From Octopus vulgaris (lineage: Eukaryota), in the NCBI GenBank assembly GCA_951406725.2, contig OX597841.1, positions 22,258,001 to 22,322,000 of the forward strand: DNA of 64,000 nucleotides, in the 5' to 3' direction. Under the pieces are notes generated by a model. The model was not told the origin of the DNA. It did no database searches and saw only the letters and a program-made list of their open reading frames with translations. This document shows, piece after piece, positions 385-39,204 of this stretch; position 1 is the stretch's first letter, and each line of letters opens with the position of its first letter. The translations under genes were made by a program, and so were the position numbers.

Positions 385-1143
385 ATAATTTTTTGCGCTG
401 TCAGCAATTAAAGCAAAGTCATTGGCATAGGGAAGTTCCCAGGGTCATACTGTCTTGAATTCCTCCGTTATTACCTGGAGGACTATGATAAATAGGAGGG
501 GGCTGAGGACTGAACCTTGGTGGACCCCTACATCTACCCTGAATTCTTCAGCGTACTCGTTGCCAACCCGAACCTTAAGTGCAGCATCCCTGTACATGGC
601 TTGCACGGCTCTCACTAACCATTCATCTATCCCTAGTTTCCTCATTGACCACCAGATAAGTGATCAGGGGACCCTGTCAAAGGCTTTCTCCATGTCAACG
701 AAAGCGAGGTACAGGGGCTTATCTTTGGCTAGGTATTTCTCCTGCAGCTGTCTTACCAGAAATATAGCATCAGTGGTGCTTTTCCCTGGCACGAAACCAA
801 ATTGCATCTCATCCAAACTGACTCTCTCCCTAATTAGTTGGGCTATGACCCTCTCCGTGACCATCATGACCTGATCCAACAGCTTGATACCTCTGTAATT
901 ATTTGTATCTAAACCATCACCTTTACCTTTGTAGCAGTTGACTATGGTGCTGCTACACCAGTCGTTGGGTATGACTCCTTCGTGTATCACCTGGTTTACT
1001 GTATGGGTGACTAGGCTATAGCCGACACTGCCAGATATTTTGAGCATCTCTGCAGTAATTCCTGATGGGCCGGGGACTTTCCCTGTCTTCATACTTGTAA
1101 TTGCCTTATCTATCGAGGTGCTGACAACTCAGATAGCTGGTCA

Positions 1144-1146: not shown

Positions 1147-1190
<44 letters not shown>

Positions 1191-1219
1191 CTCATAACAA
1201 TTCTGCTTGTCGTTGTTAC

Positions 1220-1447
1220 TTAACCCTTTCATTACTGTATTTATTTTGAGATGCTCTGTGTTACTTTCAATTACTTTAAATATAACAAAGAATTTAGTAA
1301 AATAACTTAGTTATCATTCAGGTAGTGTTAGGAACATAAATTGTGACTAAGGTTTGGTGGAAGATTTTAACTCAAAACTTGTGAAAACAAAACATTTGTA
1401 CTTAGAGCCAGAGCCGGTTTCAGCCGGGTTGGTAATGAAAGGGCTAA
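1220..1447 (+). mobile_element. ~220-bp piggyBac-like MITE (also 8949-9175, 15687-15914, 25694-25921, 34650-34876, ~52398-52623, ~52763-52978, ~60312-60526, and reversed at ~43848-44070)
   Basis: TTAA-CCCTTTC(A/G)TTAC ... GTAA(C/T)GAAAGGG-(T/C)TAA terminal inverted repeats; TTAA targets and CCC ends are piggyBac hallmarks. Confidence 0.75.
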
Positions 1448-2189
1448 ATGTTAAGTAGCAATAAAATACATCACTAAGGAAAGCTGTTGTTCTGGCTGTC
1501 AACTTGTGAGGTGTTATTGTTTTCAACTAAGAACCATAGCTATGGGAAAATTTGCTATGGGAAAATTGAAGATTTGATTTCGATTTTAGTGCTAGCTTGT
1601 TTGCAAGGAAAATTTATCCCACGTGTTTTGTTACAGCTTGTTTAATAAATCGAGAGGTATTTATTATAGGAAAATGAATGAGGTATTTCCCTTGTCTGTT
1701 AAAGGAAAATATATTGGTTATATATGTGGATCCCTTCCAGGGGCCGTAGCCATATAATTATAGATTTTTTATTAAACTTCAATGAATGTTACTTTAACAT
1801 ATTTGCAATGTTTCACAGAATTTCAACAGGTGTAGACAGCAAATTGATACAAACAACTTGTATAAGATGTTATATATTACATCTCATATAAAATCCATTC
1901 TATCTGTGTGTGTGTGTGTATGGCTTCTAGGATCTCTGGCATCTGCCTAATGTCGGGCACGAAAATACCTTTGAAAGCAATGAAGTCATAAAAGAATCAT
2001 CCATAACTTGCAGTAAGCAACATTTATTAAAATAAAAGTATTCAGAACACAGAAAACATGTAACAAAAACAATTTGCAAACATATTTACATTCCTATATA
2101 ACAGTTAAGAACATCACCATTATTGTATTACGCATGCGCGGAAGTGTTTGTTCGACTAGGTACTGCTGGCTTAATTACACACGACTCTA

Positions 2190-2286
2190 GTCAGAGAAGG
2201 GGTGCGTATTATACACAAGGTTTAGGTTTTTCAGAGGTACAGCTCCCTAAAAATCCCCTGCATATTATACTCAAGGATTTACGGTA
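2190..2286. mobile_element. One end of a Tc1/mariner-pogo-type DNA element
   Basis: Repeated tgc(g/a)tattatac(a/t)caagg subterminal motif ending ...gatttacggTA; partner TIR not found. Confidence 0.45.
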
Positions 2287-2289
2287 CTC

Positions 2290-2585
2290 CTTTCAGTCGA
2301 ATACTTCTTTGCAGACTATGTTGTTTGTGTAAGTTCTCCCTCTTCTTTCCCTGTTCTTGTCAGTCTTGTTAAATTTAACCCTCACATCAGATCATTTGCG
2401 AGACCTTCAGAATGCAACATACAGCTGACCATGGTTGAATACAGGTTCAGGCAAGAATGGCCCCACTTTATGAAATGTCTGCCCTTGTAAGCTTTATTGA
2501 TAGTCATTGCATGACAGGTGAACAGGAGTCTGGTTTCTTTCTAAAGAGAATGGCAAGTTTGGGATGCGCATGTGTCAAGTGATAG
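2290..2585 (-). pseudogene. Helitron RepHel (PIF1-type helicase) C-terminal relic; minus strand at ~16745-17035 and ~26750-27050, plus strand at ~9465-9755 and ~35165-35460
   Basis: Across frameshifts reads LPFSLERNQTPVHLS/AMTINK/QGQTFHKVGPFLPEPVFNHGQLYVAF*R...TNNIVCKEVF, matching the consensus QFPVRLAFAMTINKSQGQ..VF.HGQLYVA.SR..T.NIVY.EV. Confidence 0.85.
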
Positions 2586-2867
2586 GCAATACAAAAAACT
2601 TAGTTCAATTAAAAACAAAAGCAGTTTTCTTTTCACTATGCACTCACCATTGTCACCACCACCACCACCACCCTCTGTCTTTCTGTCTTTTTTTAATCTC
2701 ACCATCAGAACATCACCCCTCTACTGAAATTATATTCCTAACACTTTTCTGTATCACTTTGAACTGACTTTTTAATCATGTAATACATATTATGTACACC
2801 CCTGTCACACTTCATGTTCTCACTCATCTTTTTCTCTCTCTCCCCTTTCTCTGATCATGTGAATGTT

Positions 2868-3019
2868 TACCCTTTCGTTACCAACCCGGCTGAAACTGGC
2901 TCTGGCTCTAAACAAATGTCTTGTTTTCATAAGTTTTGAGTTAAAATCTTCCACCAAACCTTAGTCACAATTTATGTTCGTAACACTAGCTGAATGATAA
3001 CTAAGTTATTTTACTAAAT
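2868..3019 (-). mobile_element. Inverted, truncated copy of the same MITE (also 17320-17474, 27333-27487)
   Basis: Reverse complement of ~1292-1443. Confidence 0.8.
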
Positions 3020-3020
3020 C

Positions 3021-3356
3021 TTTCAACATCAATGGAAATTGTAGCTGAGATACCAGTGCCGGTGGCACGTAAGAGAACCGTCCGAACGTGGCCGTTGCCA
3101 GCGCCGCCCCGACTGGCCTCCGTGCCAGTGACATGGCCAGTTGCCAGCCTCGTCTGGCACCTGTGCAGGTGGCACGTAAAAAGCACCCACTACACTCTCA
3201 GAGTGGTTGGCGTTAGGAAGGGCATCCAGCTGTAGAAAAAACACTGCCAGATCAGACTGGGCCTGGTGCAGCCTCCTGGCTTCCCAGACCCCAGTTGAAC
3301 TGCCCAACCCATGCTAGCATGGAACAACAGACGTTAAACGATGATGATGATGATGA
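3021..3356 (+). mobile_element. SINE-like element with (GAT)n tail (also ~10381-10634, 17476-17808, 27489-27819; reversed at ~50769-51045 and ~58554-58830)
   Basis: Dispersed copies carrying ggcacgtaaaaagcacccactacact..ggcgttaggaagggcatccagc and the tail gacgttaaacgatgatgat; same tail type as the RTE 3' ends at 42.9-43.5 kb. Confidence 0.7.
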
Positions 3357-4036
3357 CTTCAGTCAAAATAGTGAACTTTATTAAGTCAAAGCCTTTGCAA
3401 TCGCGCCTATTTGAGAAGTTGTGCAAAGAGATGAGAAGCGATCATAAATCACTTCTTTTGCACACAGAAATACGATGGCTCCCTAGGGGGCAAGTGTTAA
3501 CAAGACTTGCAGAACTCCACGAAGAAGTAGCTATATTTCTAGAAGATAAAAGCGATTTTGCGAAATATTTGCGTGACGAAGAATTTGTTCTGAGGCTTAC
3601 GTATTTAGCAGATATTTTTTCGAAATTAAACGACCTGAATTTGTATTTACAAGGAACAGAAGGTATCAGTATATTTGCAATTCATGAGAAAATTCGAGGT
3701 TTTATGAAAAAACTTGTCTTGTGGAAAAATCGTATTAACAAGCGAAATTATGACCGTTTTGAAACATTTGAAATTTTTGTAATGGAGAATAAAGCAAAAG
3801 TTGATGATGGTATAATCATTGAGATATCTGAACACTTGAATAAGTTAAATGAAAGTTTTGAATTTTATTTTCATAAAGTGATGAATACTATACAACAGAA
3901 AAGATGGATTATGAACCCCTTTCAGCCTGACGTGACGACTGGAATATCAACAAAAGCCGGTGAGGAACTTATTGATTTATCCGAAGACTCTTCCTTGAAA
4001 ATGACTTTTAACACAGGAATATGGTGTCTCTCCTGA
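3341..4036 (+). mobile_element. hAT (Buster/Charlie, SCAND3/ZBED8-like) transposase fragment, open 231-aa ORF
   Basis: VKIVNFIKSKPLQSRLF..LC, LLLHTEIRWL.RG.VL.R, LTYLADIFSKLNDLNLYLQG, WIMNPF; N-terminal catalytic region and C-terminal dimerisation domain absent. Confidence 0.88.
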
Positions 4037-4080
4037 ATGAAAATGTTTGTGAGAAGTTAAGCACTACTTTGAGAGAAAGA
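4013..4080 (-). pseudogene. Orphan zinc-finger remnant (present in cassettes A-E)
   Basis: Reads SFSQSSA-[1-nt deletion]-TSHKHFHSGETPYSC. Confidence 0.75.
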
Positions 4081-4277
4081 TATAATAATAATAATAATTG
4101 TGTACAGTGCTCAGATGCACTACAACTCATCTAAAGTGTATGTATAATCAGGTGTAGTTTCGGCGGATTTCGGAAAGCATTAAAGGATGCAGTGTCATGG
4201 CAGTCAACAACTGACGCAGGCAGTTTATTCCATGCTTCAGCAACTCTGAGCGTGAAAAAATGTTTCCGAAAGTCATG
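4081..4277 (-). mobile_element. CR1/L2-group LINE 3' end with (ATT)n tail (also ~11360-11566, 18535-18732, 28545-28752, 36710-36946)
   Basis: Minus strand reads [24 protein letters not shown], the FF..R....WN.LP C-terminal signature; homologous to 22296-22672. Confidence 0.8.
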
Positions 4278-4286: not shown

Positions 4287-5108
4287 CTATCCTATATGAA
4301 CAAGTATGTGAGAATTTAAAACACTTCGGTCAGAGAATGAGGTACCACAGACATCACAGGGATAAGGCTTCTCTCCTGTATGAATACGTATGTGCGTAGT
4401 CAAGTTACCTTTTCGAGAGAATGATTTACCACAAGTGTCACAGTGAAATAGCTTCTCCCCTGTATGAATACGTTTGTGTCTAGTCAAGTTATTACTTTGA
4501 GGGAAAGATTTACCGCAGATGCCACAGTGAAACGGCTTCTCCCCTGTATGAACACGTATGTGATAATTTAAAGCACTTTGGGAACCGAATGATGTACCAC
4601 AGACATCACAGTGATATGGCTTCTCTCCAGTATGAATACGTTGGTGTGTACTCAAGCTACCTTTTCTAGGGAATGATTTACCGCAAACGTCACAGTGAAA
4701 TAGCTTCTCCCCTGTATGAACAAGTATGTGAGAGTTTAAAGCACTCTGGTCAGAGAATGATGTACCACAGACATCACAACGATAAGGCTTCTCCCCTGTA
4801 TGAATACGTTTGTGTCTAGTCAAGTTATTATTTTGAGGGAAAGATTTACCACAGATGTCGCAGTGAAATGGCTTCTCCCCTGTATGAATACGTTGGTGTG
4901 TAGTCAAGTTAATTTTTTTAGAGAATGATTTACCACAGGTGTCACAATGAAATGGATTTTCCCCTGTATGAACACGTTTGTGCATATTTAAGCGACCCTT
5001 TTGTGAGAAACACTTTTTACAGACATCACAGTCATATGACAGTTTTTGTTTCCCCTCTTCTCTATCTTCTGGAAAAATCAGTTCCTTTAGATTCTCACTC
5101 TTTTCCAT
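4287..5108 (-). CDS. C2H2 zinc-finger protein A, 273 aa, 9 fingers
   Basis: ORF of repeated CxxC-x12-HxxxH fingers with TGEKP linkers, all in one exon; ends HIG* at a mutated linker. Confidence 0.9.
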   Translation of the reverse strand: MEKSENLKELIFPEDREEGKQKLSYDCDVCKKCFSQKGRLNMHKRVHTGENPFHCDTCGKSFSKKINLTTHQRIHTGEKPFHCDICGKSFPQNNNLTRHKRIHTGEKPYRCDVCGTSFSDQSALNSHILVHTGEKLFHCDVCGKSFPRKGSLSTHQRIHTGEKPYHCDVCGTSFGSQSALNYHIRVHTGEKPFHCGICGKSFPQSNNLTRHKRIHTGEKLFHCDTCGKSFSRKGNLTTHIRIHTGEKPYPCDVCGTSFSDRSVLNSHILVHIG

Positions 5109-5466
5109 TATTTTTGTCCAAAAATCACAGTATATAATCTTTTTTCACCTTTTCGCTTCCATAGTGTTTTGTTTACAAATATTTCAACTGCTGTATTTCT
5201 GTCCATTGTTAATTTTGTCCCAAAACATTTTACTAAAATAATCCAAGTTTAATTCTTACACAGACTTATCTTGTGGACACTCCAGCCAGTGATATCCAGA
5301 AGGTTTGCTAATAACACAATTCAGAGTAAATATATCAGAGGAATTCCACCACAGATTTATAGAAACAATCTTATATAACTGTTTTGTACAATATTTCCAT
5401 TTTGGTCTTTAAAAGATGATAAATAATGAGAATGTATCTTCAGTTATGCCAATGTCATCTGATATT

Positions 5467-8393: not shown

Positions 8394-8907
8394 CTAGCAG
8401 TATCGCCCGGCGTTGCTCGGGTTTGTAAGGGAAATAACTATATAAGCATTTTTTAGAGAGTTACTTCCCTTATAGATGCCAATTCCGGCTTTCTTAGCCA
8501 TTTCTGTTTTGGTGTCTTCAAGCCATGAAGTCGTTGTTCTAAAAGAACGCTGGTCTTCTTGACAACGCTTTACGACGTTGATTTCCTTACACTCCCTTCC
8601 CCACAGCTTCACGAGGGAGGGAAGAAAGGGGAGAAGCAAACAGGTGCAGGTGTGACCATGGACGCCAACTCCGCCGCCATCGACACACGAAAAATTATGC
8701 ATTAAAATGGAATAAAAAATTATGTTAAATTATTTTTAAAATCGTAGACTCATCGTAGACACGCGCTAATACTCAGACGGGCTTAATATGAATCACGACT
8801 ATAAGATACCCGAATTTGGTTAAACTGCACCGCAAAATGTGGGAGTAGTTAGGAATCTAAATCGAAGGGGACAGACACTCACACAACTACAGTTTTATAT
8901 ATATAGA
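8394..8907 (-). mobile_element. Non-autonomous Helitron, ~514 bp
   Basis: Minus strand starts TC(tatatatataaaac), ends with hairpin CCCGagcaacgcCGGG then CTAG; inserted between A and T with no TSD; empty site in the other four cassettes. Confidence 0.82.
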
Positions 8908-10634
8908 TATATATAAAATCTCATAACAATTCCGCTTGTCATTGTTACTTAACCCTTTCATTACTGTATTTATTTTGAGATGCTCTCTGTTACTTTCAAT
9001 TACTTTAAATATAACAAAGAATTTAGTAAAATAACTTAGTTATCATTCAGCTAGTGTTAGGAACATAAATTGTGACTAAGGTTTGGTGGAAGATTTTAAC
9101 TCAAAACTTATGAAAACAAGACATTTGTACTTAGAGCCAGAGCCAGTTTCAGCCGGGTTGGTAACGAAAGGGTAACACATTCACATGGTCAGAGAAAGGG
9201 GGAGAGAGAGAAAAAGAGTGAGTGAGAAGCATGAAGTGTGGCAGGGGAGTACGTAATATGTATTACATGATTAAAAAGTCAGTTCAAAGTGATACAGAAA
9301 AGTGTTAGGAATATAATTTCAGTAGAGGGGTGATGTTCTGATGGTGAGATTAAAAAAAGACAGAAAGAGAGAGGGTGGTGGTGGTGGTGGTGACAATGGT
9401 GAGTGCATAGTGAAAAGAAAACTGCTTTTGTTTTTAATTGAACTAAGTTTTTTGTATTACCTATCACTTGACACATGCGCATCCCAAACTTGCCATTCTC
9501 TTTAGAAAGAAACCAGACTCCTGTTCACCTGTCATGCAATGACTATCAATAAAGCTTACAAGGGCAGACATTTCATAAAGTGGGGCCATTCTTGCCTGAA
9601 CCTGTATTCAACCATGGTCAGCTGTATGTTGCATTCTGAAGGTCTCGCAAATGATCTGATGTGAGGGTTAAATTTAACAAGACTGACAAGCACAGGGAAA
9701 GAAGAGGGAGAACTTACACAAACAACATCGTCTGCAAAGAAGTATTCGACTCAAAGGAGTACCGTAAATCCTTGAGTATAATATGTAGGGGATTTTTAGG
9801 GGGTTGTACAACTGAAAAACCTAAACCTTGTGTATAATACGCACCCCTTCTCTAACTAGAGTCGTGCGTAATTAAGCCAGCAGTACCTAGTCGAACAAAC
9901 ACTTCCGCGCATGCGTAATACAATAATGGTGATGTTCTTAACTGTTATATGGAAATGTAAATATGTTTGCAAATTGTTTTTGTTACATGTTTTCGGTGTT
10001 CTGAATACTTTTATTTTAATAAATGTTGCTTACTGCAAGTTATGGATGATTCGTTTATGACTTCATTGCTTTCAAAGGTATTTTCGTGCCCGACATTAGG
10101 CAGATGCCAGAGATCCTAGAAGCCATACACACACACACACAGATAGAACGGATTTTATATGAGATGTAATACATAACATCTTATACAAGTTGTTTGTATC
10201 AATTTGCTGTCTACACCTGTTGAAATTCTGTGAAACATTGCAAATATGTTAAAGTAACATTCAGTTTGTTACTAGGCTCATTGAAGTTTAATAAAAAATC
10301 TATAATTATATGGCTACGGCCCCTGGAAGGGATCCACATATATAACCAATATATTTTCCTTTAACAGACAAGGGAAATACCGGTGACATGTAAAAAGCAC
10401 CATCCGATCATGGCCACTTGTTAGCTTCGTCTGGCACCTGTGCAGGTGGCACATAAAAAGCACCCACTACACTCTCGGAGTGGTTGGCGTTAGGAAGGGC
10501 ATCCAGCTGTAGAAAAAACACTGCCAGATCAGACTGGGCCTGGTGCAGCCTCCTGGCTTCCCAGACCCCAGTTGAACTGCCCAACCCATGCTAGCATGGA
10601 ACAACAGACGTTAAACGATGATGATGATGATGAT

Positions 10635-11313: not shown

Positions 11314-11576
11314 ATGAAAATGTTTGTGAGAAGTTAAGCACTACTTTGAGAGAAAGATTTAATAATAATAATAATAATTGTGTACAGTGCTCAGGTGCAC
11401 TACAACTCATCTAAAGTGTATATATAATCAGGTGTAGTTTCGGCGGATTTCGGAAAGCATTAGGGCCTTAAAGGATGCAGTGTCATGGCAGTCAACAACT
11501 GACGCAGGCAGTTTATTCCATGCTTCAGCAACTCTGAGCGTGAAAAAATGTTTCCAAAAGTCATGATATGGTTTCT

Positions 11577-11785: not shown

Positions 11786-12523
11786 TCACTCTGTATGAAT
11801 ACGTTTGTGTCTAGTCAAGTTATAACTCTGAGGGAAAGATTTACCACAAATGTCACAGTGAAACAGCTTCTCCCCTGTATGAACACGTATGTGAGAATTT
11901 AAAGCACTTTGGGAACAGAATGATGTACCACAGACATCACAATGAAAAGGCTTCTCTCCTGTATGAATACGTATGTGTGTAGTCAGGCCACCTTTCTGAA
12001 AGAATGATTTACCACAAATGTCACAGTTAAATGGCTTCTTCCCTGTATGAATACGTTGGTGTGTAGTCAAGTTAATTTTTTTAGAGAATGATTTACCACA
12101 GGTGTCACAATGAAATGGATTCTCCCCTGTATGAACAAGTATGTGAGAGTTTAAAGCACTCTGGTCAGAGAATGATGTACTACAGACATCACAACGATAA
12201 GGCTTCTCCCCTGTATGAATACGTCTGTGTCTAGTCAAGTTAAAACTTTGAGGGAAAGATTTACCACAGATGTCGCAGTGAAATGGCTTCTCCCCTGTAT
12301 GAACACGTTCGTGTGTAGTCAAGTTACTTATTTTAGAGAATGATTTACCACAGGTGTCACAATGAAATGGATTTTCCCCTGTATGAACACGTTTGTGCAT
12401 ATTTAAGCGACCCTTTTTTGAGAAAGACTTTTTACAGACATCACAGTCATGTGACAATTTTTGTTTCCCCTCTTCTCTATCTTCAGGAAAAATCAGTTCC
12501 TTTAGATTCTCACTCTTTTCCAT
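11786..12523 (-). CDS. C2H2 zinc-finger protein B, 245 aa, 8 fingers, truncated by a frameshifting deletion
   Basis: 8 intact fingers, then a ~41-nt deletion relative to C/D gives HTE*. Confidence 0.85.
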
Positions 12524-13291
12524 TATTTTTCTTCAAAAATCACAGTATATAATCTTTTTTCACCTTTTCGCTTCCATAGTGTTTTGTTTACAAATATTTC
12601 AACTGCTGTATTTCTGTCCATTGTTAATTTTGTCCCAAAACATTTTACTAAAATAATCCAAGTTTAATTCTTACACAGACTTATCTTGTGGACACTCCAG
12701 CCAGTGATATCCAGAAGGTTTGCTAATAACACAATTCAGAGTAAATATATCAGAGGAAATCCACCACAGATTTGTAGAAACAATCTTATATATCTGTTTT
12801 GTACAATATTTCCATTTTGGTCTTTAAAAGATGATAAATAATGAGAACGTATCTTCAGTTATGCCAATGTCATCTGATATTCTGAAAGAATAAAGAAACA
12901 ACAGTGTAAGATATGGAGGCTATTTAAAAAAATACAGATTCAACATTTCCATAGAGATAAACTCTAGAAATAAACATTTACCTGAACAACAGAACTTTTT
13001 AATTTATTAAAATTTACATCACAAAATCTTGTGTGAAGCTAACATATTTGTAAACTCCAGCTACACATTCACACACACACACACGTTTATATATATATAT
13101 ACTCTTCCTTGTGTTAGTTGTTTTGACTGTGCCTATACTGGAGCATCATCTTAGAGGGTATTAGTTGATCAAATCAACCCTAGGACTTCATTTTTGAGCC
13201 TAGTACTTATATTGGCCTCTTTTGTGAAACCACTAAATTATGGGGACATAAACACACCAACACTGGTTATCAAACAGTCACAAAGACACAC

Positions 13292-15628: not shown

Positions 15629-15657
<29 letters not shown>

Positions 15658-17792
15658 CTCATAACAATTCTGCTTGACGTTGTTACTTAACCCTTTCATT
15701 ACTGTATTTATTTTGAGATGCTCTGTGTTACTTTCAATTACTTTAAATATAACAAAGAATTTAGTAAAATAACTTAGTTATCATTCAGCTAGTGTTAGGA
15801 ACATAAATTGTGACTAAGGTTTGGTGGAAGATTTTAACTCAAAACTTGTGAAAACAAAACATTTGTACTTAGAGCCAGAGCCGGTTTCAGCCGGGTTGGT
15901 AATGAAAGGGCTAAATGTTAAGTAGCAATAAAATACATCACTAAGGAAAGCTGTTGTTCTGGCTGTCAACTTGTGAGGTGTTATTGTTTTCAACTAAGAA
16001 CCATAGAATTTGCTATGGGAAAATTGAAGATTTGATTTCGATTTTAGTGCTAGCTTGTTTGCAAGGAAAATTTATCCCACGTGTTTTGTTACAGCTTGTT
16101 TAATAAATCGAGAGGTATTTATTATAGGAAAATGAATGAGGTATTTCCCTTGTCTGTTAAAGGAAAATATATTGGTTATATATGTGGATCCCTTCCAGGG
16201 GCCGTAGCCATATAATTATAGATTTTTTATTAAACTTCAATGAATGTTACTTTAACATATTTGCAATGTTTCACAGAATTTCAACAGGTGTAGACAGCAA
16301 ATTGATACAAACAACTTGTATAAGATGTTATATATTACATCTCATATAAAATCCATTCTATCTGTGTGTGTGTGTGTATGGCTTCTAGGATCTCTGGCAT
16401 CTGCCTAATGTCGGGCACGAAAATACCTTTGAAAGCAATGAAGTCATAAAAGAATCATCCATAACTTGCAGTAAGCAACATTTATTAAAATAAAAGTATT
16501 CAGAACACAGAAAACATGTAACAAAAACAATTTGCAAACATATTTACATTCCTATATAACAGTTAATAACATCACCATTATTGTATTACGCATGCGCGGA
16601 AGTGTTTGTTCGACTAGGTACTGCTGGCTTAATTACACACGACTCTAGTCAGAGAAGGGGTGCGTATTATACACAAGGTTTAGGTTTTTCAGAGGTACAG
16701 CTCCCTAAAAATCCCCTGCATATTATACTCAAGGATTTACGGTACTCCTTTCAGTCGAATACTTCTTTGCAGACTATGTTGTTTGTGTAAGTTCTCCCTC
16801 TTCTTGTCAGTCTTGTTAAATTTAACCCTCACATCAGATCATTTGCGAGACCTTCAGAATGCAACATACAGCTGACCATGGTTGAATACAGGTTCAGGCA
16901 AGAATGGCCCCACTTTATGAAATGTCTGCCCTTGTAAGCTTTATTGATAGTCATTGCATGACAGGTGAACAGGAGTCTGGTTTCTTTCTAAAGAGAATGG
17001 CAAGTTTGGGATGCGCATGTGTCAAGTGATAGGTAATACAAAAAACTTAGTTCAATTAAAAACAAAAGCAGTTTTCTTTTCACTATGCACTCACCATTGT
17101 CACCACCACCACCACCACCCTCTCTCTCTCTGTCTTTTTTTAATCTCACCATCAGAACATCACCCCTCTACTGAAATTATATTCCTAACACTTTTCTCTG
17201 TATCACTTTGAACTGACTTTTTAATCATGTAATACATATTATGTACTCCCCTGTCACACTTCATGCTTCTCACTCACTCTTTTTCTCTCTCTCCCCCTTT
17301 CTCTGATCATGTGAATGTGTTACCCTTTCGTTACCAACCCGGCTGAAACTGGCTCTGGCTCTAAGTACAAATGTCTTGTTTTCATAAGTTTTGAGTTAAA
17401 ATCTTCCACCAAACCTTAGTCACAATTTATGTTCCTAACACTAGCTGAATGATAACTAAGTTATTTTACTAAATCTTTCAACATCAATGGAAATTGTAGC
17501 TGAGATACCAGTGCCGGTGGCACGTAAGAGAACCGTCCGAACGTGGCCGTTGCCAGCGCCGCCCCAACTGGCCTCCGTGCCAGTGACATGGCCAGTTGCC
17601 AGCCTCGTCTGGCACCTGTGCAGGTGGCACGTAAAAAGCACCCACTACACTCTCAGAGTGGTTGGCGTTAGGAAGGGTAACCAGCTATAGAAACACTGCC
17701 AGATCAGACTGGGCCTGGCGCAGCCTCCTGGCTTCCCAGACCCCAGTTGAACTGCCCAACCCATGCTAGCATGGAACAACAGACGTTAAACG

Positions 17793-18741: not shown

Positions 18742-20739
18742 CTATCCTATATGAACAAGTATGTGAGAATTTAAAACACTTCGGTCAGAGAATGAGGTAC
18801 CACAGACATCACAGGGATAAGGCTTCTCTCCTGTATGAATACGTATGTGCGTAGTCAAGTTACCTTTTCGAGAGAATGATTTACCACAAGTGTCACAGTG
18901 AAATAGCTTCTCCCCTGTATGAACACTTATGTGAGAGTTTAAAGCAGTCTGGTCAGAGAATGATGTACCACAGACATCACAACGATAAGGCTTCTCCCCT
19001 GTATGAATACGTTTGTGTCTAGTCAAGTTATTACTTTGAGGGAAAGATTTACCACAGATGTCACAGTGAAATGGTTTCTCCCCTGTATGAACACGTATGT
19101 GTGAATTAAAAGCACTTCGGCCAAGGAATGATGCAAAACAGACATCACAGTGATATGGCTTCTCTCCAGTATGAATACGTTGGTGTGTAGTCAAGCAAAC
19201 TTTTCTAGGGAATGAATTACCGCAGATGTCACAGTGAAATAGCTTCTCCCCTGTATGAACAAGTATGTGAGAGTTTAAAGCACTCTGGTCAGAGAATGAT
19301 GTACCACAGACATCACAACGATAAGGCTTCTCCCCTGTATGAATACGTTTGTGTCTAGTCAAGTTATTATTTTGAGTGAAAGATTTACCACAGATGTCGC
19401 AGTGAAATGGCTTCTCCCCTGTATGAACAAGTATGTGAGAGTTTAAAGTACTCTGGACAGAGAATGATGTACCACAGACATCACAACGATAAGGCTTCTC
19501 CCCTGTATGAATACGTTTGTGTCTAGTCAAGTTATTACTTTGAGGGAAAGATTTACCACAGATGTCACAGTGAAATGGTTTCTCCCCTGTATGAACACGT
19601 ATGTGTGAATTAAAAGCACTTCGGCCAAGGAATGATGCAAAACAGACATCACAGTGATATGGCTTCTCTCCAGTATGAATACGTTGGTGTCTAGTCAAGC
19701 TACCTTTTCTAGGGAATGATTTACCGCAGATGTCACAGTGAAATAGCTTCTCCCCTGTATGAACAAGTATGTGAGAGTTTAAAGCACTCTGGTCAGAGAA
19801 TGATGTACCACAGACATCACAACGATAAGGCTTCTCCCCTGTATGAATACGTTTGTGTCTAGTCAAGTTATTATTTTGAGGGAAAGATTTACCACAGATG
19901 TCGCAGTGAAATGGCTTCTCCCCTGTATGAACAAGTATGTGAGAGTTTAAAGTACTCTGGGCAGAGAATGATGTACCACAGACATCACAACGATAAGGCT
20001 TCTCCCCTGTATGAATACGTTTGTGTCTAGTCAAGTTATTACTTTGAGGGAAAGATTTACCACAGATGTCACAGTGAAATAGCTTCTCCCCTGTATGAAC
20101 AAGTATGTGAGAGTTTAAAGCACTCTGGTCAGAGAATGATGTACCACAGACATCACAACGATAAGGCTTATCCCCTGTATGAATACGTTTGTGTCTAGTC
20201 AAGTTATTATTTTGAGGGAAAGATTTACCACAGATGTCACAGTGAAATAGCTTCTCCCCTGTATGAACAAGTATGTGAGAGTTTAAAGCACTCTGGTGAG
20301 AGAATGATGTACCACAGACCTCACAACGATAAGGCTTCTCCCCTGTATGAATACGTTTGTGTCTAGTCAAGTTATTACTTTGAGGGAAAGATTTACCACA
20401 GATGTCGCAGTGAAATGGCTTCTCCCCTGTATGAATACGTTTGTGTCTAGTCAAGTTATTATTTTGAGGGAAAGATTTACCACAGATGTCGCAGTGAAAT
20501 GGCTTCTCCCCTGTATGAATACGTTGGTGTGTAGTCAAGTTAATTTTTTTAGAGAATGATTTACCACAGGTGTCACAGTGAAATGGATTTTCCCCTGTAT
20601 GAACACGTTTGTGCATATTTAAGCGACCCTTTTTTGAGAAAGACTTTTTACAGACATCACAGTCATGTGACAATTTTTGTTTCCCCTCTTCTCTATCTTC
20701 AGGAAAAATCAGTTCCTTTAGATTCTCACTCTTTTCCAT
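18742..20739 (-). CDS. C2H2 zinc-finger protein C, 665 aa, 23 fingers
   Basis: 23 fingers with internal 2-finger (168 bp) and 6-finger (504 bp) repetition. Confidence 0.92.
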   Translation of the reverse strand: MEKSENLKELIFPEDREEGKQKLSHDCDVCKKSFSKKGRLNMHKRVHTGENPFHCDTCGKSFSKKINLTTHQRIHTGEKPFHCDICGKSFPQNNNLTRHKRIHTGEKPFHCDICGKSFPQSNNLTRHKRIHTGEKPYRCEVCGTSFSHQSALNSHILVHTGEKLFHCDICGKSFPQNNNLTRHKRIHTGDKPYRCDVCGTSFSDQSALNSHILVHTGEKLFHCDICGKSFPQSNNLTRHKRIHTGEKPYRCDVCGTSFSAQSTLNSHILVHTGEKPFHCDICGKSFPQNNNLTRHKRIHTGEKPYRCDVCGTSFSDQSALNSHILVHTGEKLFHCDICGKSFPRKGSLTRHQRIHTGEKPYHCDVCFASFLGRSAFNSHIRVHTGEKPFHCDICGKSFPQSNNLTRHKRIHTGEKPYRCDVCGTSFSVQSTLNSHILVHTGEKPFHCDICGKSFTQNNNLTRHKRIHTGEKPYRCDVCGTSFSDQSALNSHILVHTGEKLFHCDICGNSFPRKVCLTTHQRIHTGEKPYHCDVCFASFLGRSAFNSHIRVHTGEKPFHCDICGKSFPQSNNLTRHKRIHTGEKPYRCDVCGTSFSDQTALNSHISVHTGEKLFHCDTCGKSFSRKGNLTTHIRIHTGEKPYPCDVCGTSFSDRSVLNSHILVHIG

Positions 20740-21543
20740 TATTTTTCTTCAAAAATCACAGTATATAATCTTTTTTCACCTTTTCGCTTCCATAGTGTTT
20801 TGTTTCCAAATATTTCAACTGCTGTATTTCTGTCCATTGTTAATTTTGTCCCAAAACATTTTACTAAAATAATCCAAGTTTAATTCTTACACAGACTTAT
20901 CTTGTGGACACTCCAGCCAGTGATATCCAGAAGGTTTGCTAATAACACAATTCAGAGTAAATATATCAGAGGAATTCCACCACAGATTTATAGAAACAAT
21001 CTTATATATCTGTTCTGTACAATATTTCCATTTTGGTCTTTAAAAGATGATAAATAATGAGAATGTATCTTCAGTTATGCCAATGTCATCTGATATTCTG
21101 AAAGAATAAAGAAACAACAGTGTAAGATATGGAGGCTACTTAAAAAAATACAGATTCAACATTTCCATAAAGATAAACTCTAGAAACAAACATTTAACTG
21201 AACAACAGAACTTTCTAATTTATTAGAATTTACATGAGAAAATCTTGTGTGAAGCTAACATATTTGTAAACTCCAGCTACACATTCACACACGTTTATAT
21301 ATATATATACTCTTCCTTGTGTTAGTTGTTTTGACTGTGGCTATACTGGAGCATCACCTTAGAGGGTGTTAGTTGATCAAATCAACCCTAGGACTTCATT
21401 TTTTAGCCTAGTACATATATTGGCCTCTTTTGTGAAACCACTAAATTATGGGGACACAAACATACGAACACTGGTTATGAAGTGTTGGTGGGGCGTCAAA
21501 CAGTCACAAAGATATATATGCATATATACATAAATACTCATTA

Positions 21544-25664: not shown

Positions 25665-27803
25665 CTCATAACAATTCTGCTTGACGTTGTTACTTAACCC
25701 TTTCATTACTGTATTTATTTTGAGATGCTCTGTGTTACTTTCAATTACTTTAAATATAACAAAGAATTTAGTAAAATAACTTAGTTATCATTCAGCTAGT
25801 GTTAGGAACATAAATTGTGACTAAGGTTTGGTGGAAGATTTTAACTCAAAACTTGTGAAAACAAAACATTTGTACTTAGAGCCAGAGCCGGTTTCAGCCG
25901 GGTTGGTAATGAAAGGGCTAAATGTTAAGTAGCAATAAAATACATCACTAAGGAAAGCTGTTGTTCTGGCTGTCAACTTGTGAGGTGTTATTGTTTTCAA
26001 CTAAGAACCATAGAATTTGCTATGGGAAAATTGAAGATTTGATTTCGATTTTAGTGCTAGCTTGTTTGCAAGGAAAATTTATCCCACGTGTTTTGTTACA
26101 GCTTGTTTAATAAATCGAGAGGTATTTATTATAGGAAAATGAATGTGGTATTTCCCTTGTCTGTTAAAGGAAAATATATTGGTTATATATGTGGATCCCT
26201 TCCAGGGGCTGTAGCCATATAATTATAGATTTTTTATTAAACTTCAATGAATGTTACTTTAACATATTTGCAATGTTTCACAGAATTTCAACAGGTGTAG
26301 ACAGCAAATTGATACAAACAACTTGTATAAGATGTTATATATTACATCTCATATAAAATCCATTCTATCTGTGTGTGTGTGTGTATGGCTTCTAGGATCT
26401 CTGGCATCTGCCTGTCGGGCACGAAAATACCTTTGAAAGCAATGAAGTCATAAAAGAATCATCCATAACTTGCAGTAAGCAACATTTATTAAAATAAAAG
26501 TATTCAGAACACAGAAAACATGTAACAAAAACAATTTGCAAACATATTTACATTCCTATATAACAGTTAAGAACATCACCATTATTGTATTACGCATGCG
26601 CGGAAGTGTTTGTTCGACTAGGTACTGCTGGCTTAATTACACACGACTCTAGTCAGAGAAGGGGTGCGTATTATACACAAGGTTTAGGTTTTTCAGAGGT
26701 ACAGCTCCCTAAAAATCCCCTGCATATTATACTCAAGGATTTACGGTACTCCTTTCAGTCGAATACTTCTTTGCAGACTATGTTGTTTGTGTAAGTTCTC
26801 CCTCTTCTTTCCCTGTTCTTGTCAGTCTTGTTAAATTTAACCCTCACATCAGATCATTTGCGAGACCTTCAGAATGCAACATACAGCTGACCATGGTTGA
26901 ATACAGGTTCAGGCAAGAATGGCCCCACTTTATGAAATGTCTGCCCTTGTAAGCTTTATTGATAGTCATTGCATGACAGGTGAACAGGAGTCTGGTTTCT
27001 TTCTAAAAAGAATGGCAAGTTTGGGATGCGCATGTGTCAAGTGATAGGTAATACAAAAAACTTGGTTCAATTAAAAACAAAAGCAGTTTTCTTTTCACTA
27101 TGCACTCACCATTGTCACCACCACCACCACCACCCTCTGTCTTTCTGTCTTTTTTTAATCTCACCATCAGAACATCACCCCTCTACTGAAATTATATTCC
27201 TAACACTTTTCTGTATCACTTTGAACTGACTTTTTAATCATGTAATACATATTATGTACACCCCTGTCACACTTCATGCTTCTCACTCACTCTTTTTCTC
27301 TCTCTCCCCCTTTCTCTGATCATGTGAATGTGTTACCCTTTCGTTACCAACCCGGCTGAAACTGGCTCTGGCTCTAAGTACAAATGTCTTGTTTTCATAA
27401 GTTTTGAGTTAAAATCTTCCACCAAACCTTAGTCACAATTTATGTTCCTAACACTAGCTGAATGATAACTAAGTTATTTTACTAAATCTTTCAACATCAA
27501 TGGAAATTGTAGCTGAGATACCAGTGCCGGTGGCACGTAAGAGAACCGTCCGAACGTGGCCGTTGCCAGCGCCGCCCCGACTGGCCTCCGTGCCATGACA
27601 TGGCCAGCTGCCAGCCTCGTCTGGCACCTGTGCAGGTGGCACGTAAAAAGCACCCACTACACTCTCAGAGTGGTTGGCGTTAGGAAGGGTAACCAGCTAT
27701 AGAAACACTGCCAGATCATCTAGGCCTGGCACAGCCTCCTGGCTTCCCAGACCCCAGTTGAACTGCCCAATCCATGCTAGCATGGAACAACAGACGTTAA
27801 ACG

Positions 27804-28761: not shown

Positions 28762-29667
28762 CTATCCTATATGAACAAGTATGTGAGAATTTAAAACACT
28801 TCGGTCAGAGAATGAGGTACCACAGACATCACAGGGATAAGGCTTCTCTCCTGTATGAATACGTATGTGCGTAGTCAAGTTACCTTTTCGAGAGAATGAT
28901 TTACCACAAGTGTCACAGTGAAATAGCTTCTCCCCTGTATGAACACTTATGTGAGAGTTTAAAGCAGTCTGGTCAGAGAATGATGTACCACAGACATCAC
29001 AACGATAAGGCTTCTCCCCTGTATGAATACGTTTGTGTCTAGTCAAGTTATTACTTTGAGGGAAAGATTTACCACAGATGTCACAGTGAAATGGTTTCTC
29101 CCCTGTATGAACACGTATGTGTGAATTAAAAGCACTTCGGCCAAGGAATGATGCAAAACAGACATCACAGTGATATGGCTTCTCTCCAGTATGAATACGT
29201 TGGTGTGTAGTCAAGCTACCTTTTCTAGGGAATGATTTACCGCAGATGTCACAGTGAAATAGCTTCTCCCCTGTATGAACAAGTATGTGAGAGTTTAAAG
29301 CACTCTGGTCAGAGAATGATGTACCACAGACATCACAACGATAAGGCTTCTCCCCTGTATGAATACGTTTGTGTCTAGTCAAGTTATTACTTTGAGGGAA
29401 AGATTTACCACAGATGTCGCAGTGAAATGGCTTCTCCCCTGTATGAATACGTTGGTGTGTAGTCAAGTTAATTTTTTTAGAGAATGATTTACCACAGGTG
29501 TCACAGTGAAATGGCTTCTCCCCTGTATGAACACGTTTGTGCATATTTAAGCGACCCTTTTTTGAGAAAGACTTTTTACAGACATCACAGTCATGTGACA
29601 ATTTTTGTTTCCCCTCTTCTCTATCTTCAGGAAAAATCAGTTCCTTTAGATTCTCACTCTTTTCCAT
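28762..29667 (-). CDS. C2H2 zinc-finger protein D, 301 aa, 10 fingers
   Basis: Ends nearly identical to C but 13 fewer fingers. Confidence 0.9.
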
Positions 29668-30612
29668 TATTTTTCTTCAAAAATCACAGTATATAATCTT
29701 TTTTCACCTTTTCGCTTCCATAGTGTTTTGTTTCCAAATATTTCAACTGCTGTATTTCTGTCCATTGTTAATTTTGTCCCAAAACATTTTACTAAAATAA
29801 TCCAAGTTTAATTCTTACACAGACTTATCTTGTGGACACTCCAGCCAGTGATATCCAGAAGGTTTGCTAATAACACAATTCAGAGTAAATATATCAGAGG
29901 AATTCCACCACAGATTTATAGAAACAATCTTATATATCTGTTCTGTACAATATTTCCATTTTGGTCTTTAAAAGATGATAAATAATGAGAATGTATCTTC
30001 AGTTATGCCAATGTCATCTGATATTCTGAAAGAATAAAGAAACAACAGTGTAAGATATGGAGGCTACTTAAAAAAATACAGATTCAACATTTCCATAAAG
30101 ATAAACTCTAGAAACAAACATTTAACTGAACAACAGAACTTTCTAATTTATTAGAATTTACATGAGAAAATCTTGTGTGAAGCTAACATATTTGTAAACT
30201 CCAGCTACACATTCACACACGTTTATATATATATATACTCTTCCTTGTGTTAGTTGTTTTGACTGTGGCTATACTGGAGCATCACCTTAGAGGGTGTTAG
30301 TTGATCAAATCAACCCTAGGACTTCATTTTTTAGCCTAGTACATATATTGGCCTCTTTTGTGAAACCACTAAATTATGGGGACACAAACATACGAACACT
30401 GGTTATGAAGTGTTGGTGGGGCGTCAAACAGTCACAAAGATATATATGCATATATACATAAATACTCATTAATATACATATATATATATATATATATATA
30501 TTGGGCTTCTTTCAGTTTCCATCTACCAAATCCAATGACAAGGATTTAGTCGGCTAATGTCTATTGTATAAAATACTTGCCTAAGTAGGTTCGCAGTGGG
30601 ACTGAACCTGGA

Positions 30613-34593: not shown

Positions 34594-36169
34594 ATATATA
34601 TATATATATATATATAAAATCTCATAACAATTCTGCTTGTCATTGTTACTTAACCCTTTCATTACTGTATTTATTTTGAGATGCTCTGTGTTACTTTCAA
34701 TTACTTTAAATATAACAAAGAATTTAGTAAAATAACTTAGTTATCATTCAGCTAGTGTTAGGAACATAAATTGTGACTAAGGTTTGGTGGAAGATTCTAA
34801 CTCAAAACTTATGAGAACAAAACATTTGTACTTAGAGCCAGAGCCAGTTTCAGCCGGGTTGGTAACGAAAGGGTAACACATTCACATGGTCAGAGAAAGG
34901 GGGAGAGAGAGAAAAAGAGTGAGTGAGAAGCATGAAGTGTGGCAGGGGAGTACGTAATATGTATTACATGATTAAAAAGTCAGTTCAAAGTGATACAGAA
35001 AAGTGTTAGGAATATAATTTCAGTAGAGGGGTGATGTTCTAATGGTGAGATTAAAAAAAGACAGAAAGAGAGAGGGTGGTGGTGGTGGTGGTGACAATGG
35101 TGAGTGCATAGTGAAAAGAAAACTGCTTTTGTTTTTAATTGAACTAAGTTTTTTTGTATTACCTATCACTTGACACATGCGCATCCCAAACTTGCCATTC
35201 TCTTTAGAAAGAAACCAGACTCCTGTTCACCTGTCATGCAATGACTATCAATAAAGCTTACAAGGGCAGACATTTCGTAAAGTGGGGCCATTCTTGCCTG
35301 AACCTGTATTCAACCATGGTCAGCTGTATGTTGCATTCTGAAGGTCTCGCAAATGATCTGATGTGAGGGTTAAATTTAACAAGACTGACAAGAACAGGGA
35401 AAGAAGAGGGAGAACTTACACAAACAACATAGTCTGCAAAGAAGTATTCGACTGAAAGGAGTACCGTAAATCCTTGAGTATAATATGCAGGGGATTTTTA
35501 GGGAGCTGTACCCCTGAAAAACCTAAACCTTGTGTATAATACGCACCCCTTCTCTAACTAGAGTCGTGCGTAATTAAGCCAGCAGTACCTAGTCGAACAA
35601 ACACTTCCGCGCATGCGTAATACAATAATGGTGATGTTCTTAACTGTTATATGGAAATGTAAATATGTTTGCAAATTGTTTTTGTTACATGTTTTCTGTG
35701 TTCTGAATACTTTTATTTTAATAAATGTTGCTTACTGCAAGTTATGGATGATTCTTTTATGACTTCATTGCTTTCAAAGGTATTTTCGTGCCCGACATTA
35801 GGCAGATGCCAGAGATCCTAGAAGCCATACACACACACACACAGATAGAATGGATTTTATATGAGATGTAATATATAACATCTTATACAAGTTGTTTGTA
35901 TCAATTTGCTGTCTACACCTGTTGAAATTCTGTGAAACTTTGCAAATATGTTAAAGTAACATTCAGTTTGTTACTAGGCTCATTGAAGTTTAATAAAAAA
36001 TCTATAATTATATGGCTACGGCCCCTGGAAGGGATCCACATATATAACCAATATATTTTCCTTTAACAGACAAAGGAAAGACCTCATTCATTTTCCTTTA
36101 ATAAATACCTCTCGATTTATTAAACAAGCTGTAATAAAAATGTGGGATAAATTTTCCTTGCAAACAAGC

Positions 36170-37165: not shown

Positions 37166-37903
37166 TCACTCTGTATGAATACGTTTGTGTCTAGTCAAGT
37201 TATAACTCTGAGGGAAAGATTTACCACAAATGTCACAGTGAAACCGCTTCTCCCCTGTATGAACACGTATGTGAGATATTAAAGCACTTTGGGAACCGAA
37301 TGATGTAGCACAGACATCACAATGAAAAGGCTTCTCTCCTGTATGAATACGTATGTGTGTAGTCAGGCCACCTTTCTGAAAGAATGATTTACCACAGATG
37401 TCACAGTTAAATGGCTTCTTCCCTGTATGAATACGTTGGTGTGTAGTCAAGTTAATTTTTTTAGAGAATGATTTACCACAGGTGTCACAATGAAATGGAG
37501 TCTCCCCTGTATGAACAAGTATATGAGAGTTTAAAGCACTCTGGTGAGAGAATGATGTACTACAGACATCACAACGATAAGGCTTCTCCCCTGTATGAAT
37601 ACGTCTGTGTCTAGTCAAGTTAAAACTTTGAGGGAAAGATTTATCACAGATGTCGCAGTGAAATGGCTTCTCCCCTGTATGAACACGTTCGTGTGTAGTC
37701 AAGTTACTTATTTTAGAGAATGATTTACCACAGGTGTCACAATGAAATGGATTTTCCCCTGCATGAACACGTTTGTGCATATTTAAGTGACCCTTTTTTG
37801 AGAAAGACTTTTTACAGACATTACAGTCATATGAGAGTTTTTGTTTCCCCTCTTCTCTACCTTCAGGAAAAATCAGTTCCTTCACTTTCTCACTCTTTTC
37901 CAT
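37166..37903 (-). CDS. C2H2 zinc-finger protein E, 245 aa, 8 fingers, truncated like B
   Basis: Same HTE* deletion junction (ggtcactctgtatg) as B; out-of-frame fingers follow at ~36957-37165. Confidence 0.85.
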
Positions 37904-39204
37904 TATTTTTCCTTCAAGTTCACAATATACGTTCTTTTTTTATTCTTTTTGCTTCTATAGTCTTTTGTTTACAAATATTTCAACTGTTGTATTTCTGGAC
38001 ACTGTTACCTTTGTCCCAAAACAACTAAATTTATCCACGTTCAATCTGCAAACAGGCTCATCTTGTAGACACACCAGCCAGTGATGTCCAGAAGGTTTGC
38101 TAATAACACAATTCAGAGTAAATATATCAGAGGAATTCCACCATAGATTTGTAGAAACAATCTTATATATCTGTTCAGTAAAATATTTTCATTCTGGTCT
38201 TTAAAAGATGATAAATAATGAGAATGTATCTTTGGTTATGCCAATGTCATCTGATATTCTGAAATAATAAAGAAACAACAGTGTAAGATATAGAGGCTAC
38301 TTAAAAAAATACAGATTCAACATTTCCATAGAGATAAACTCTAGAAATAAACATTTACCTGAACAAAAGAACTATTCACTTTATTAAAATTTACAAGAGA
38401 AAATCTTGTGTGAAGCTAACATATTTGTAAACTCCAGCTCCACATTCACACACATTCTTCTACTTATTTCAGTTGTTTTGACTGTCGCCATGCTGGAGCA
38501 CCACCTTAGAGGGTTTTAGTAGATCAAATCTACCTAGGACTCATTTTTTGAGCCTAGTACATATTGTATTGACCTCTTTTGTGAAACCACTAAATTATGG
38601 GCACATAAACACACATATACATATTTACATTAACACACACACACCGCAAAATCCTAAGTAATTTGCACACTTGTGTTATTGACGCAGGCAATTTTCAGGA
38701 TAAAAATTATTAAAAAAAGCTTGTAAAATTCTCACCCAAAAGTTTTCAGAATTGCCAATATGGCCAGGAGCAAAAGGTTTTCAATTTAGTTGTATTTAGC
38801 ATAATTTCACCTATGATTAGATTTTATTAAACTTTCCTTAAATAAAAATAATTTCTGTTTAACAGGTATCACATTCTGGGGAGAGTCATTTTCTTTTTGT
38901 GCCTTATAACGTAACACACTCACTGGTAAAATTTCCACTTATTTCTTATTTTTATTTTCCTAAAATTTTCGTTGCGTCTTGCAACCTTTTCAAAGCTATT
39001 AAATTACAAAGTGTTTATATTGTTTATAATAAACTTTATTTTACATTTTTTGCCCACAAGATTACGACCAATCTTTAGTATACTGCTGAGGTGTGGCAAA
39101 ATAAGTTTAATTAGCAATAAACATCAGCTTGGATGACACTCAACCGACAGAGGTGACCCATCAAACTGATTATGGAAACAGAATTCTGATGCATAGAACA
39201 CAAC

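What the first reader, a model, noticed from the sequence alone, without database searches (positions are those of the whole stretch)
1220..3019. MITE-flanked ~1.4-kb segment present in two orientations that track ZF gene subtype
Seen: in cassettes A, C and D the segment lies between inverted copies of one piggyBac-like MITE. In B (9176-10381) and E (34877-36170) it is reverse-complemented, with the switch point inside the left MITE (right flank gggctaaatg versus gggtaacacatt). The far junction is lost by two different deletions: into the SINE in B, into the hAT fragment in E. Forward copies carry HIG*-ending genes and an open hAT ORF; reversed copies carry HTE*-truncated genes and a dead hAT ORF. 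Inference: inversion by recombination between inverted MITEs; forward copies keep both repeats and could still flip.
Basis: partly seen in the sequence, partly recalled or inferred. Interest (0 to 1): 0.7.

Follow-up and report, generated by a model that had tools for sequence, protein, structure and literature searches.

The report
Old locked inversion in zinc-finger array
In a tandem array of seven zinc-finger genes, a 1.4-kb stretch of transposon debris lies backwards in three copies, likely from one old recombination between two inverted mini-transposons; all three reversed copies have lost one repeat, so this looks like an ordinary one-off rearrangement and not a working switch.

Summary
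The inversion is real; the link to gene subtype and the switch idea are not supported. The array has seven cassettes, two just upstream of the window, in the order reversed, forward, forward, reversed, forward, forward, reversed. Reversed copies carry a chimeric piggyBac-family MITE whose 3' end has the right copy's alleles, as expected after recombination inside the repeat. All 3 reversed copies lack the second MITE, through two different deletions. They share 5 derived substitutions and fall on one side of the tree in three regions, which favours one origin. The upstream reversed copy has an intact 17-finger HIG*-ending gene. 'HTE*' is one 41-bp frameshift deletion shared by B and E. The 'open hAT ORF' is a non-catalytic internal fragment. 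The E-type junction appears in runs under three other species labels, so the event is old. The closest match is human-chimpanzee repeat-mediated inversions with deletions. Side result: the event created 1.4-kb, 96-97% identical inverted repeats around four whole genes; none has flipped in this assembly. An unchecked earlier scan note reports another transposon-mediated inversion elsewhere in this genome.

The parts
386..1140 (-). LINE reverse-transcriptase fragment, left flank of every cassette
   Evidence: Pfam RVT_1, E 4.7e-9; dispersed family at about 92% identity
1220..1447 (+). Left piggyBac-family MITE of cassette A (TTAA 1220-1223, element 1224-1443, degraded target copy CTAA)
   Evidence: TTAA on the left in 23 of 23 and on the right in 21 of 23 dispersed copies; ends shared with piggyBac elements L127 and L134
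1448..2865 (+). Inverted segment in its forward state: three repeat remnants (old repeat 1448-1856, young repeat about 1950-2286, old repeat 2284-2852); no ORF of 150 aa
2866..3023 (-). Right MITE of cassette A, inverted, outer about 65 bp missing, inner target copy degraded
3045..3356 (+).
3357..4014 (+). Internal 660-bp fragment of a dispersed hAT transposon of about 2.55 kb; lacks the DESTD, TDGA and HC..H motifs and the C-terminal dimerisation region
   Evidence: Pfam Dimer_Tnp_hAT over cut-off in the part of dispersed copy L067 beyond the fragment
4086..4272 (-). About 190-bp insertion after the stop codon, resembling a LINE 3' end (recalled), with an AATAAA at 4229; present in A, B, C, D, E, Z1 and absent in Z2
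4287..5144 (-). C2H2 zinc-finger exon of cassette A, 9 fingers, ends HIG*
8949..9172 (+). Chimeric MITE of cassette B (left flank and 5' part of the left copy, 3' alleles and flank of the right copy)
9177..10381 (-). Reversed segment of B; far junction at A-position 1682 joins the SINE with 2 bp (CC) of microhomology
   Evidence: same junction in run X3
11786..12532 (-). Zinc-finger exon of B, 8 fingers, cut at HTE* by a 41-bp deletion; HIG tail remains at 11575-11814
15687..17478 (+). Forward MITE-segment-MITE unit of cassette C
18742..20748 (-). Zinc-finger exon of C, 23 fingers, HIG*
25694..27491 (+). Forward MITE-segment-MITE unit of cassette D
28762..29676 (-). Zinc-finger exon of D, 10 fingers, HIG*
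34650..34873 (+). Chimeric MITE of cassette E
34878..36169 (-). Reversed segment of E; far junction at A-position 1595 joins hAT position 3543; the same junction is in upstream cassette Z2
   Evidence: junction in runs X5, X6, X7
37166..37939 (-). Zinc-finger exon of E, 8 fingers, same 41-bp deletion as B

Best explanation
A 1.4-kb stretch of repeat debris between two inverted piggyBac-family MITEs lies reversed in three of seven tandem zinc-finger cassettes, likely from one old crossover between the MITEs followed by two separate deletions that removed the second MITE, with both forms then likely multiplied by unequal crossover. Shown: the two orientations, the chimeric MITE, the two deletion junctions, loss of the second repeat in all reversed copies, shared derived alleles in reversed copies, and mosaic ancestry along the cassettes. 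Inferred: a single event, an intact inverted intermediate (not found), forward as the ancestral state, and no function. The segment lies beyond the first poly(A) motif downstream of the gene. The apparent links to gene ending and hAT frame come from shared descent of near-copies.
For: Chimeric MITE: right-copy alleles at 1381, 1391, 1416, 1436 in Z2 (4 of 4), B (4 of 4), E (3 of 4); no fixed left/right difference in 1289-1380. The degraded target copy TAAC is shared by forward right MITEs and the chimeras, so it predates the split, which favours homology over a transposase cut (need for TTAA recalled). Derived alleles shared by Z2+B+E, polarised with dispersed family copies: LINE 808, repeat 2093, hAT 3688, 3695, 3975. 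Orientation needs 1 change on 3 of 3 trees (support 94, 96, 91). E-type junction in runs X5, X6, X7 (organisms B, C, D); B-type junction and a forward contig in X3; forward contig in X5. 0 of 7 copies is an intact inverted form. Forward as ancestral: 3 of 5 homologues of the old repeat share AATTCTGCTT upstream of a single TTAA with the MITE's left flank (15-25 of 5000 shuffles, 41-51 of 5000 random windows). Precedent: 12 of 49 repeat-mediated human-chimpanzee inversions came with deletions, median size 1452 bp (PMC2603318, passages).
Against: Two different far junctions need three events under this model but only two under the first rival. The intermediate is not seen. Only 5 derived sites unite the reversed copies, at least one at a CpG (3695), and in the LINE tree the three leave an open fork rather than a supported clade. 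All three pairings among Z2, B, E are supported in different tracts, so gene conversion could have created the shared alleles. Of the four MITE sites, two have the left allele as derived (it could postdate the split), one is polymorphic in the family, and the one derived right allele (1416) is in 6 of 23 family copies. The empty-site match is 10 bp, offset by 3 bp, absent in 2 of 5 homologues, and the 3 positives are not independent.
Confidence: 0.68

Rival explanations
1. Two independent one-step events: a replication or repair template switch in the MITE homology, a copy of the segment backwards, then a return by microhomology at different points (B-type and E-type). The MITE pair would be a mild recurrent inversion substrate over evolutionary time.
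For: Needs only two events; explains why both deletions remove the second MITE and why no intact inverted copy exists (0 of 7). The B junction has 2-bp microhomology. 63 of 203 other human-chimpanzee inversions have a repeat at one breakpoint only (PMC2603318, passages).
Against: Both events would have to strike the same sub-lineage (5 shared derived sites) and spare the four forward copies. Deletion-type joins are common here: the shared ancestor already had them at 3023, 3356 and 4014.
Confidence: 0.17
2. One inversion with deletion (E-type); B arose later by a non-homologous join between a reversed cassette's left half and an early forward cassette's SINE-hAT-gene half, with later conversion.
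For: B, E and the forward copies share the 190-bp insertion after the stop codon that Z2 lacks; hAT site 3960 groups B with forward copies. The B junction was listed only for organism A and the E junction for B, C, D (list cut).
Against: B's hAT shares three derived alleles with Z2 and E, lacks forward-derived alleles at 3482, 3519, 3879, and keeps SINE bases missing from all four forward copies.
Confidence: 0.08
3. An active, reversible switch: forward cassettes flip the segment in germ line or soma and so affect the neighbouring zinc-finger gene.
For: 4 of 4 forward copies keep both repeats; the two repeats are closer to each other than family copies usually are (0 differences over 1289-1380 in C, matched by 1 of 253 family pairs); piggyBac elements with open frames exist in the genome.
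Against: No intact inverted copy (0 of 7); no allele mixing in forward repeats; longest perfect match only 49-89 bp; both inner TTAA sites degraded and the outer end of the right MITE missing; gene ending does not follow orientation; the first AATAAA lies about 1.2 kb before the segment; the open-frame piggyBacs L119 and L120 have different terminal repeats, and the two with matching ends carry stops.
Confidence: 0.04
4. A piggyBac transposase cut the two inward-facing MITE ends and the segment was rejoined backwards (alternative transposition).
For: The MITE ends match a piggyBac family in this genome (L127, L134).
Against: The chimeras carry right-copy alleles up to 63 bp inside the element, and the right end had already lost its TTAA.
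Confidence: 0.03

Closest known systems
Retrotransposon recombination-mediated inversions (Alu-RMI, L1-RMI) between human and chimpanzee (PMC2603318; 12 passages)
   Same: Two oppositely oriented copies of one short repeat, a chimeric element at the breakpoint, about 1.4 kb (their median 1452 bp), and deletions that remove internal sequence and one repeat (12 of 49).
   Different: Here the repeat is a 220-bp piggyBac MITE, and the two orientations coexist as paralogues in one tandem array rather than as species differences.
Recurrent human inversions mediated by large inverted repeats (PMC3961182; 12 passages)
   Different: Those show no fixed differences and many shared alleles between orientations and involve large repeats. 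Here the orientations carry fixed differences, the shared repeat is about 157 bp, and reversed copies have lost a repeat.
Cephalopod C2H2 zinc-finger gene clusters (PMC9068888, 6 passages; PMC12513265, 12 passages)
   Same: Tandem, repeat-rich, lineage-specific C2H2 expansion.
   Different: The passages seen do not treat cassette-level rearrangements; 'inversion' occurs 0 times in the main text of PMC12513265. Supplements were not looked at.
Programmed invertible switches (bacterial hin/fim type; recalled, no call)
   Same: A segment between inverted repeats seen in two orientations.
   Different: No dedicated recombinase, no conserved crossover site, no reciprocal product and no promoter or coding part was found in the segment.

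Membership tests
Repeat recombination-mediated inversion | Oppositely oriented copies of one element span both breakpoints in the ancestral form | tested here: met
   4 of 4 forward copies
Repeat recombination-mediated inversion | Chimeric element at the breakpoint of the derived form | tested here: met
   Left flank plus right-copy 3' alleles and flank in 3 of 3 reversed copies; the sites are individually weak
Repeat recombination-mediated inversion | Reciprocal chimeric element at the second breakpoint | tested here: inconclusive
   Absent in 3 of 3 reversed copies because the region is deleted; deletions of this kind are reported for the class
Repeat recombination-mediated inversion | Ancestral state shown by target-site or outgroup comparison | tested here: inconclusive
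   TTAA sites cannot polarise; a 10-bp empty-site match in 3 of 5 homologues favours forward
piggyBac-family MITE | TTAA target duplication and CCC...GGG terminal inverted repeats, short, non-coding, dispersed | tested here: met
   23 of 23 left and 21 of 23 right TTAA; 838 first-look candidates, 40 scored
piggyBac-family MITE | Terminal repeats shared with transposase-bearing piggyBac elements | tested here: met
   2 of 30 PF13843 loci (L127, L134) carry CCCTTTCGTTAC-type ends around 2.5-2.6-kb elements
Recurrent (toggling) inversion | Alleles shared between orientations, no fixed differences | tested here: not met
   Fixed differences in LINE, segment and hAT; one orientation change on 3 of 3 trees. 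These are paralogues from one assembly, not a population sample
Recurrent (toggling) inversion | Both repeats intact in both orientations | tested here: not met
   0 of 3 reversed copies keep the second repeat
Recurrent (toggling) inversion | Both orientations at one locus in reads | not testable with these tools
   Only short contigs were served; none spans the repeat and both flanks
Functional hAT transposase gene | Catalytic D, D, E motifs and C-terminal dimerisation domain | tested here: not met
   The fragment begins after DESTD, TDGA, HC..H and ends before YICE (catalytic roles recalled); no Pfam hit for the fragment

The most novel reading that the evidence does not exclude
The old inversion turned the array into a better flipping substrate than the MITEs ever were: neighbouring forward and reversed cassettes now form 1.35-1.45-kb inverted repeats (96-97% identical, perfect runs of 223-325 bp, 5.2-7.2 kb apart) that bracket four whole zinc-finger genes (Z2, A, B, D). 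These genes could invert recurrently between animals or between cells, giving a structural route to zinc-finger diversity in cephalopods.
Probability: 0.06. Interest if true: 0.6.

Novelty: new member of a known kind. Interest (0 to 1): 0.2.

Why it matters
As it stands, little. It is a well-resolved example of how short transposons, deletions and unequal crossover remodel a cephalopod-type zinc-finger array, and the two junctions are usable markers for dating the array across related species. It would matter more only if long reads showed whole zinc-finger genes inverting between the 1.4-kb repeats.

Tried and rejected
1. Gene conversion from a forward copy into reversed E at 2236-2355, where E matches forward at 7 sites in a row: not supported. 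At least four of these sites (2242, 2260, 2294, 2317) are derived in Z2+B and E keeps the ancestral base. 2. Using target-site copies to decide which orientation is ancestral: both inner sites are one change from TTAA. 3. Empty-site test for the right MITE: homologues L058 and L059 do not continue into 3024 onward, so uninformative. 4. The first contig layout on 1190-4270 was swamped by high-copy repeats, with 392 joints not shown. 5. No cover of 1450-1545 in X6 and X7: not taken as absence of the forward form. The loose-end list was cut (25 rows not shown), so unlisted junctions are not absent. 6. No RNA holder on record was listed and no RNA-like run was laid, so expression is untested. 7. 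No solved-structure hit for the hAT fragment; no Pfam hit for it or for a 347-aa frame of L066. 8. Assembly artefact: B-type, E-type and forward forms occur in runs of other samples, so the forms are real. Copy number is not validated, and Z1 and C are 99.1% identical over 9.7 kb, which could be a haplotype duplicate. 9. Literature: five searches listed no paper whose title or abstract start describes this locus; the library is partial. 10. No earlier scan note near this place.

Full report
Setting. The window is G000:C28:22258001-22322000 in a 2.8-Gb animal assembly. Earlier, unchecked scan notes call this genome an octopus; the C2H2 clusters fit that, but I did not test the species. A self-comparison shows five cassettes of 7-10 kb in the first 39 kb. 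A genome search with the segment gave seven near-full hits, all on C28: the five in the window and two just upstream (40 of 4604 first-look candidates scored, the rest of those scored being partial repeat hits). With 50 kb upstream and 20 kb downstream fetched, the array reads Z2 reversed, Z1 forward, A forward, B reversed, C forward, D forward, E reversed. All seven zinc-finger exons lie on the minus strand.

The observation. Forward copies have a full MITE, about 1.4 kb of segment, and an inverted MITE that lacks its outer 65 bp or so. B and E are reverse complements of A 1682-3023 and 1595-3023 at about 96%. The far junction joins 1682 to the SINE in B (2-bp microhomology) and 1595 to hAT position 3543 in E and Z2. 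B keeps SINE and hAT sequence that E lacks, and E keeps segment sequence that B lacks, so neither is a simple further deletion of the other. The structural description is right.

The MITE. In 23 dispersed copies, 23 have TTAA on the left and 21 on the right. Two of 30 piggyBac-transposase loci (L127, L134) carry the same terminal repeat around 2.5-2.6-kb elements; both have stop codons, and the two best open-frame elements have other ends. So it is a piggyBac-family MITE.

Where the switch lies. Left and right MITEs differ at four fixed sites, all in the last 65 bp. The MITE of Z2, B and E has the left flank but right-copy alleles at 4, 4 and 3 of these 4 sites. The crossover therefore maps to 1289-1380 if the left alleles predate the event, or to 1289-1415 if not: family copies show the left allele as derived at 1381 and 1391, the right allele as derived only at 1416 (also seen in 6 of 23 family copies), and 1436 as polymorphic. 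The inner target copy of the right MITE was already degraded in both forms, which argues against a transposase cut (the need for TTAA is recalled). The two repeats are unusually alike: 4 differences over about 155 bp in C against a family mean of 9.4, and none over 1289-1380, matched by 1 of 253 family pairs. That fits sibling insertions or past conversion.

Which way is old. The segment's left part belongs to an old repeat family. Three of five homologues that reach its start share AATTCTGCTT upstream of a single TTAA with the MITE's left flank (15-25 of 5000 shuffles; 41-51 of 5000 random windows); two do not. This is modest support for forward as ancestral. The deleted junctions cut through repeats on both sides and are clearly derived.

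How many events. Polarised with dispersed family copies, Z2, B and E share derived bases at LINE 808, repeat 2093 and hAT 3688, 3695, 3975. The forward copies share their own set: five in the LINE, two in the young repeat, three in the hAT, and a 17-bp deletion at 1784. Orientation needs one change on each of three trees (support 94, 96, 91); the reversed copies form a supported clade in two and an open fork in the LINE tree (the first 145 LINE columns were left out because E follows A and D there, a crossover tract). All three pairings among Z2, B and E occur in different tracts, so the array is mosaic. One inversion followed by two deletions is the best reading; two independent inversion-plus-deletion events in one sub-lineage remain possible.

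Age. On 1450-1800, contigs from X5, X6 and X7 (organism labels B, C, D; two studies) end at 1595 and run on into hAT sequence, which is the E-type junction. X3 (organism A, another sample) shows the B-type junction at 1682 and a forward contig over 1450-1638; X5 also has a forward contig over 1450-1655. Each rests on a single contig and on the run labels, and 25 loose-end rows were not shown. Four of 24 listed runs were laid in this call. The reversed form thus predates the split of these labelled organisms, and both forms coexist in at least two.

The claimed link to gene subtype. It fails. Z2 is reversed and encodes an intact 497-aa, 17-finger protein ending HIG*. The tally is forward 4 HIG* and 0 HTE*, reversed 1 HIG* and 2 HTE*. 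HTE* comes from one 41-bp deletion shared by B and E; the last two fingers and the HIG tail remain downstream out of frame. The hAT stop does follow orientation (3 of 3 against 0 of 4) but is one shared CGA-to-TGA change. The 'open ORF' is an internal 660-bp piece of a 2.55-kb dispersed hAT element. It starts after the DESTD, TDGA and HC..H motifs, ends before the dimerisation region, and takes its only start codons from the SINE's (GAT)n tail. By my reading, about 8 of 12 changes in the forward lineage alter an amino acid, which gives no sign of constraint.

Can it still flip. Reversed copies cannot flip back through the MITEs. Forward copies keep about 157 bp of inverted homology with perfect runs of only 49-89 bp, show no mixed alleles, and no intact inverted copy is in the assembly (0 of 7). 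The segment is repeat debris lying 1.2 kb or more beyond the first AATAAA after the stop (a motif only).

A by-product. Neighbouring forward and reversed cassettes now form inverted repeats of 1.35-1.45 kb at 96-97% identity, 5.2-7.2 kb apart, with perfect runs of 223-325 bp, around the genes of Z2, A, B and D. None is flipped in this assembly, and my test for exchange between orientations was not supported.

Comparison with the literature. Human-chimpanzee inversions mediated by inverted Alu or L1 pairs have chimeric breakpoint elements, a median size of 1452 bp, and deletions in 12 of 49 cases (PMC2603318, passages). This is the same kind of event. Recurrent human inversions show shared alleles across orientations and large repeats (PMC3961182, passages), which is not met here. 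Cephalopod C2H2 expansions are described in PMC9068888 and PMC12513265 (passages). Five searches listed nothing on this locus; supplements were not examined.

Verdict. A real but ordinary and old repeat-mediated inversion, locked in its reversed copies, with no demonstrated tie to gene subtype. New member of a known kind; interest 0.2.

Noticed in passing
G000:C28:22244852-22246381 (Z2 gene, L004) and all seven exons: The shared HIG* ending looks like a nonsense change in a TGEKPY linker: a degraded further finger follows the stop, joined directly in Z2 and split by a 190-bp insertion in the other six.
   Followed up: partly
window 4287-5144, 11786-12532, 18742-20748, 28762-29676, 37166-37939; Z1, Z2: Finger number ranges from 8 to 23 (17, 23, 9, 8, 23, 10, 8) among cassettes that are 96-99% identical elsewhere, which points to fast gain and loss of fingers within the exon.
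   Followed up: partly
window 14474-24486 and the 9.7 kb just upstream of the window: Cassettes C and Z1 are 99.1% identical over 9.7 kb, and the order reversed-forward-forward repeats twice: a recent higher-order duplication or an uncollapsed haplotype.
   Followed up: partly
window 8394-8895: An insertion of about 500 bp inside the (TA)n microsatellite of cassette B only; not identified.
   Followed up: no
L119 (G000:C15:60546331-60550380), L120 (G000:C4:74655017-74659066): Two 2.6-kb piggyBac elements with both TTAA ends and open frames of 581 and 554 aa over the transposase domain, possibly recent.
   Followed up: no
window 46340-64000 and L006-L007: A second tandem array of about 7.8-kb zinc-finger cassettes (17-23 fingers, ending HT*) carries the same MITE family as direct pairs or single copies (52398-52961, 60312-60509).
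   Followed up: no
A-positions 2236-2355 in B and Z2: Seven differences shared by Z2 and B cluster in 120 bp of the segment, far denser than elsewhere; cause unknown.
   Followed up: partly
L070 and L071 (G000:C5:2580541-2584153, 2457773-2461385): Two 3.6-kb stretches 99.9% identical, in opposite orientation and 120 kb apart on C5.
   Followed up: no
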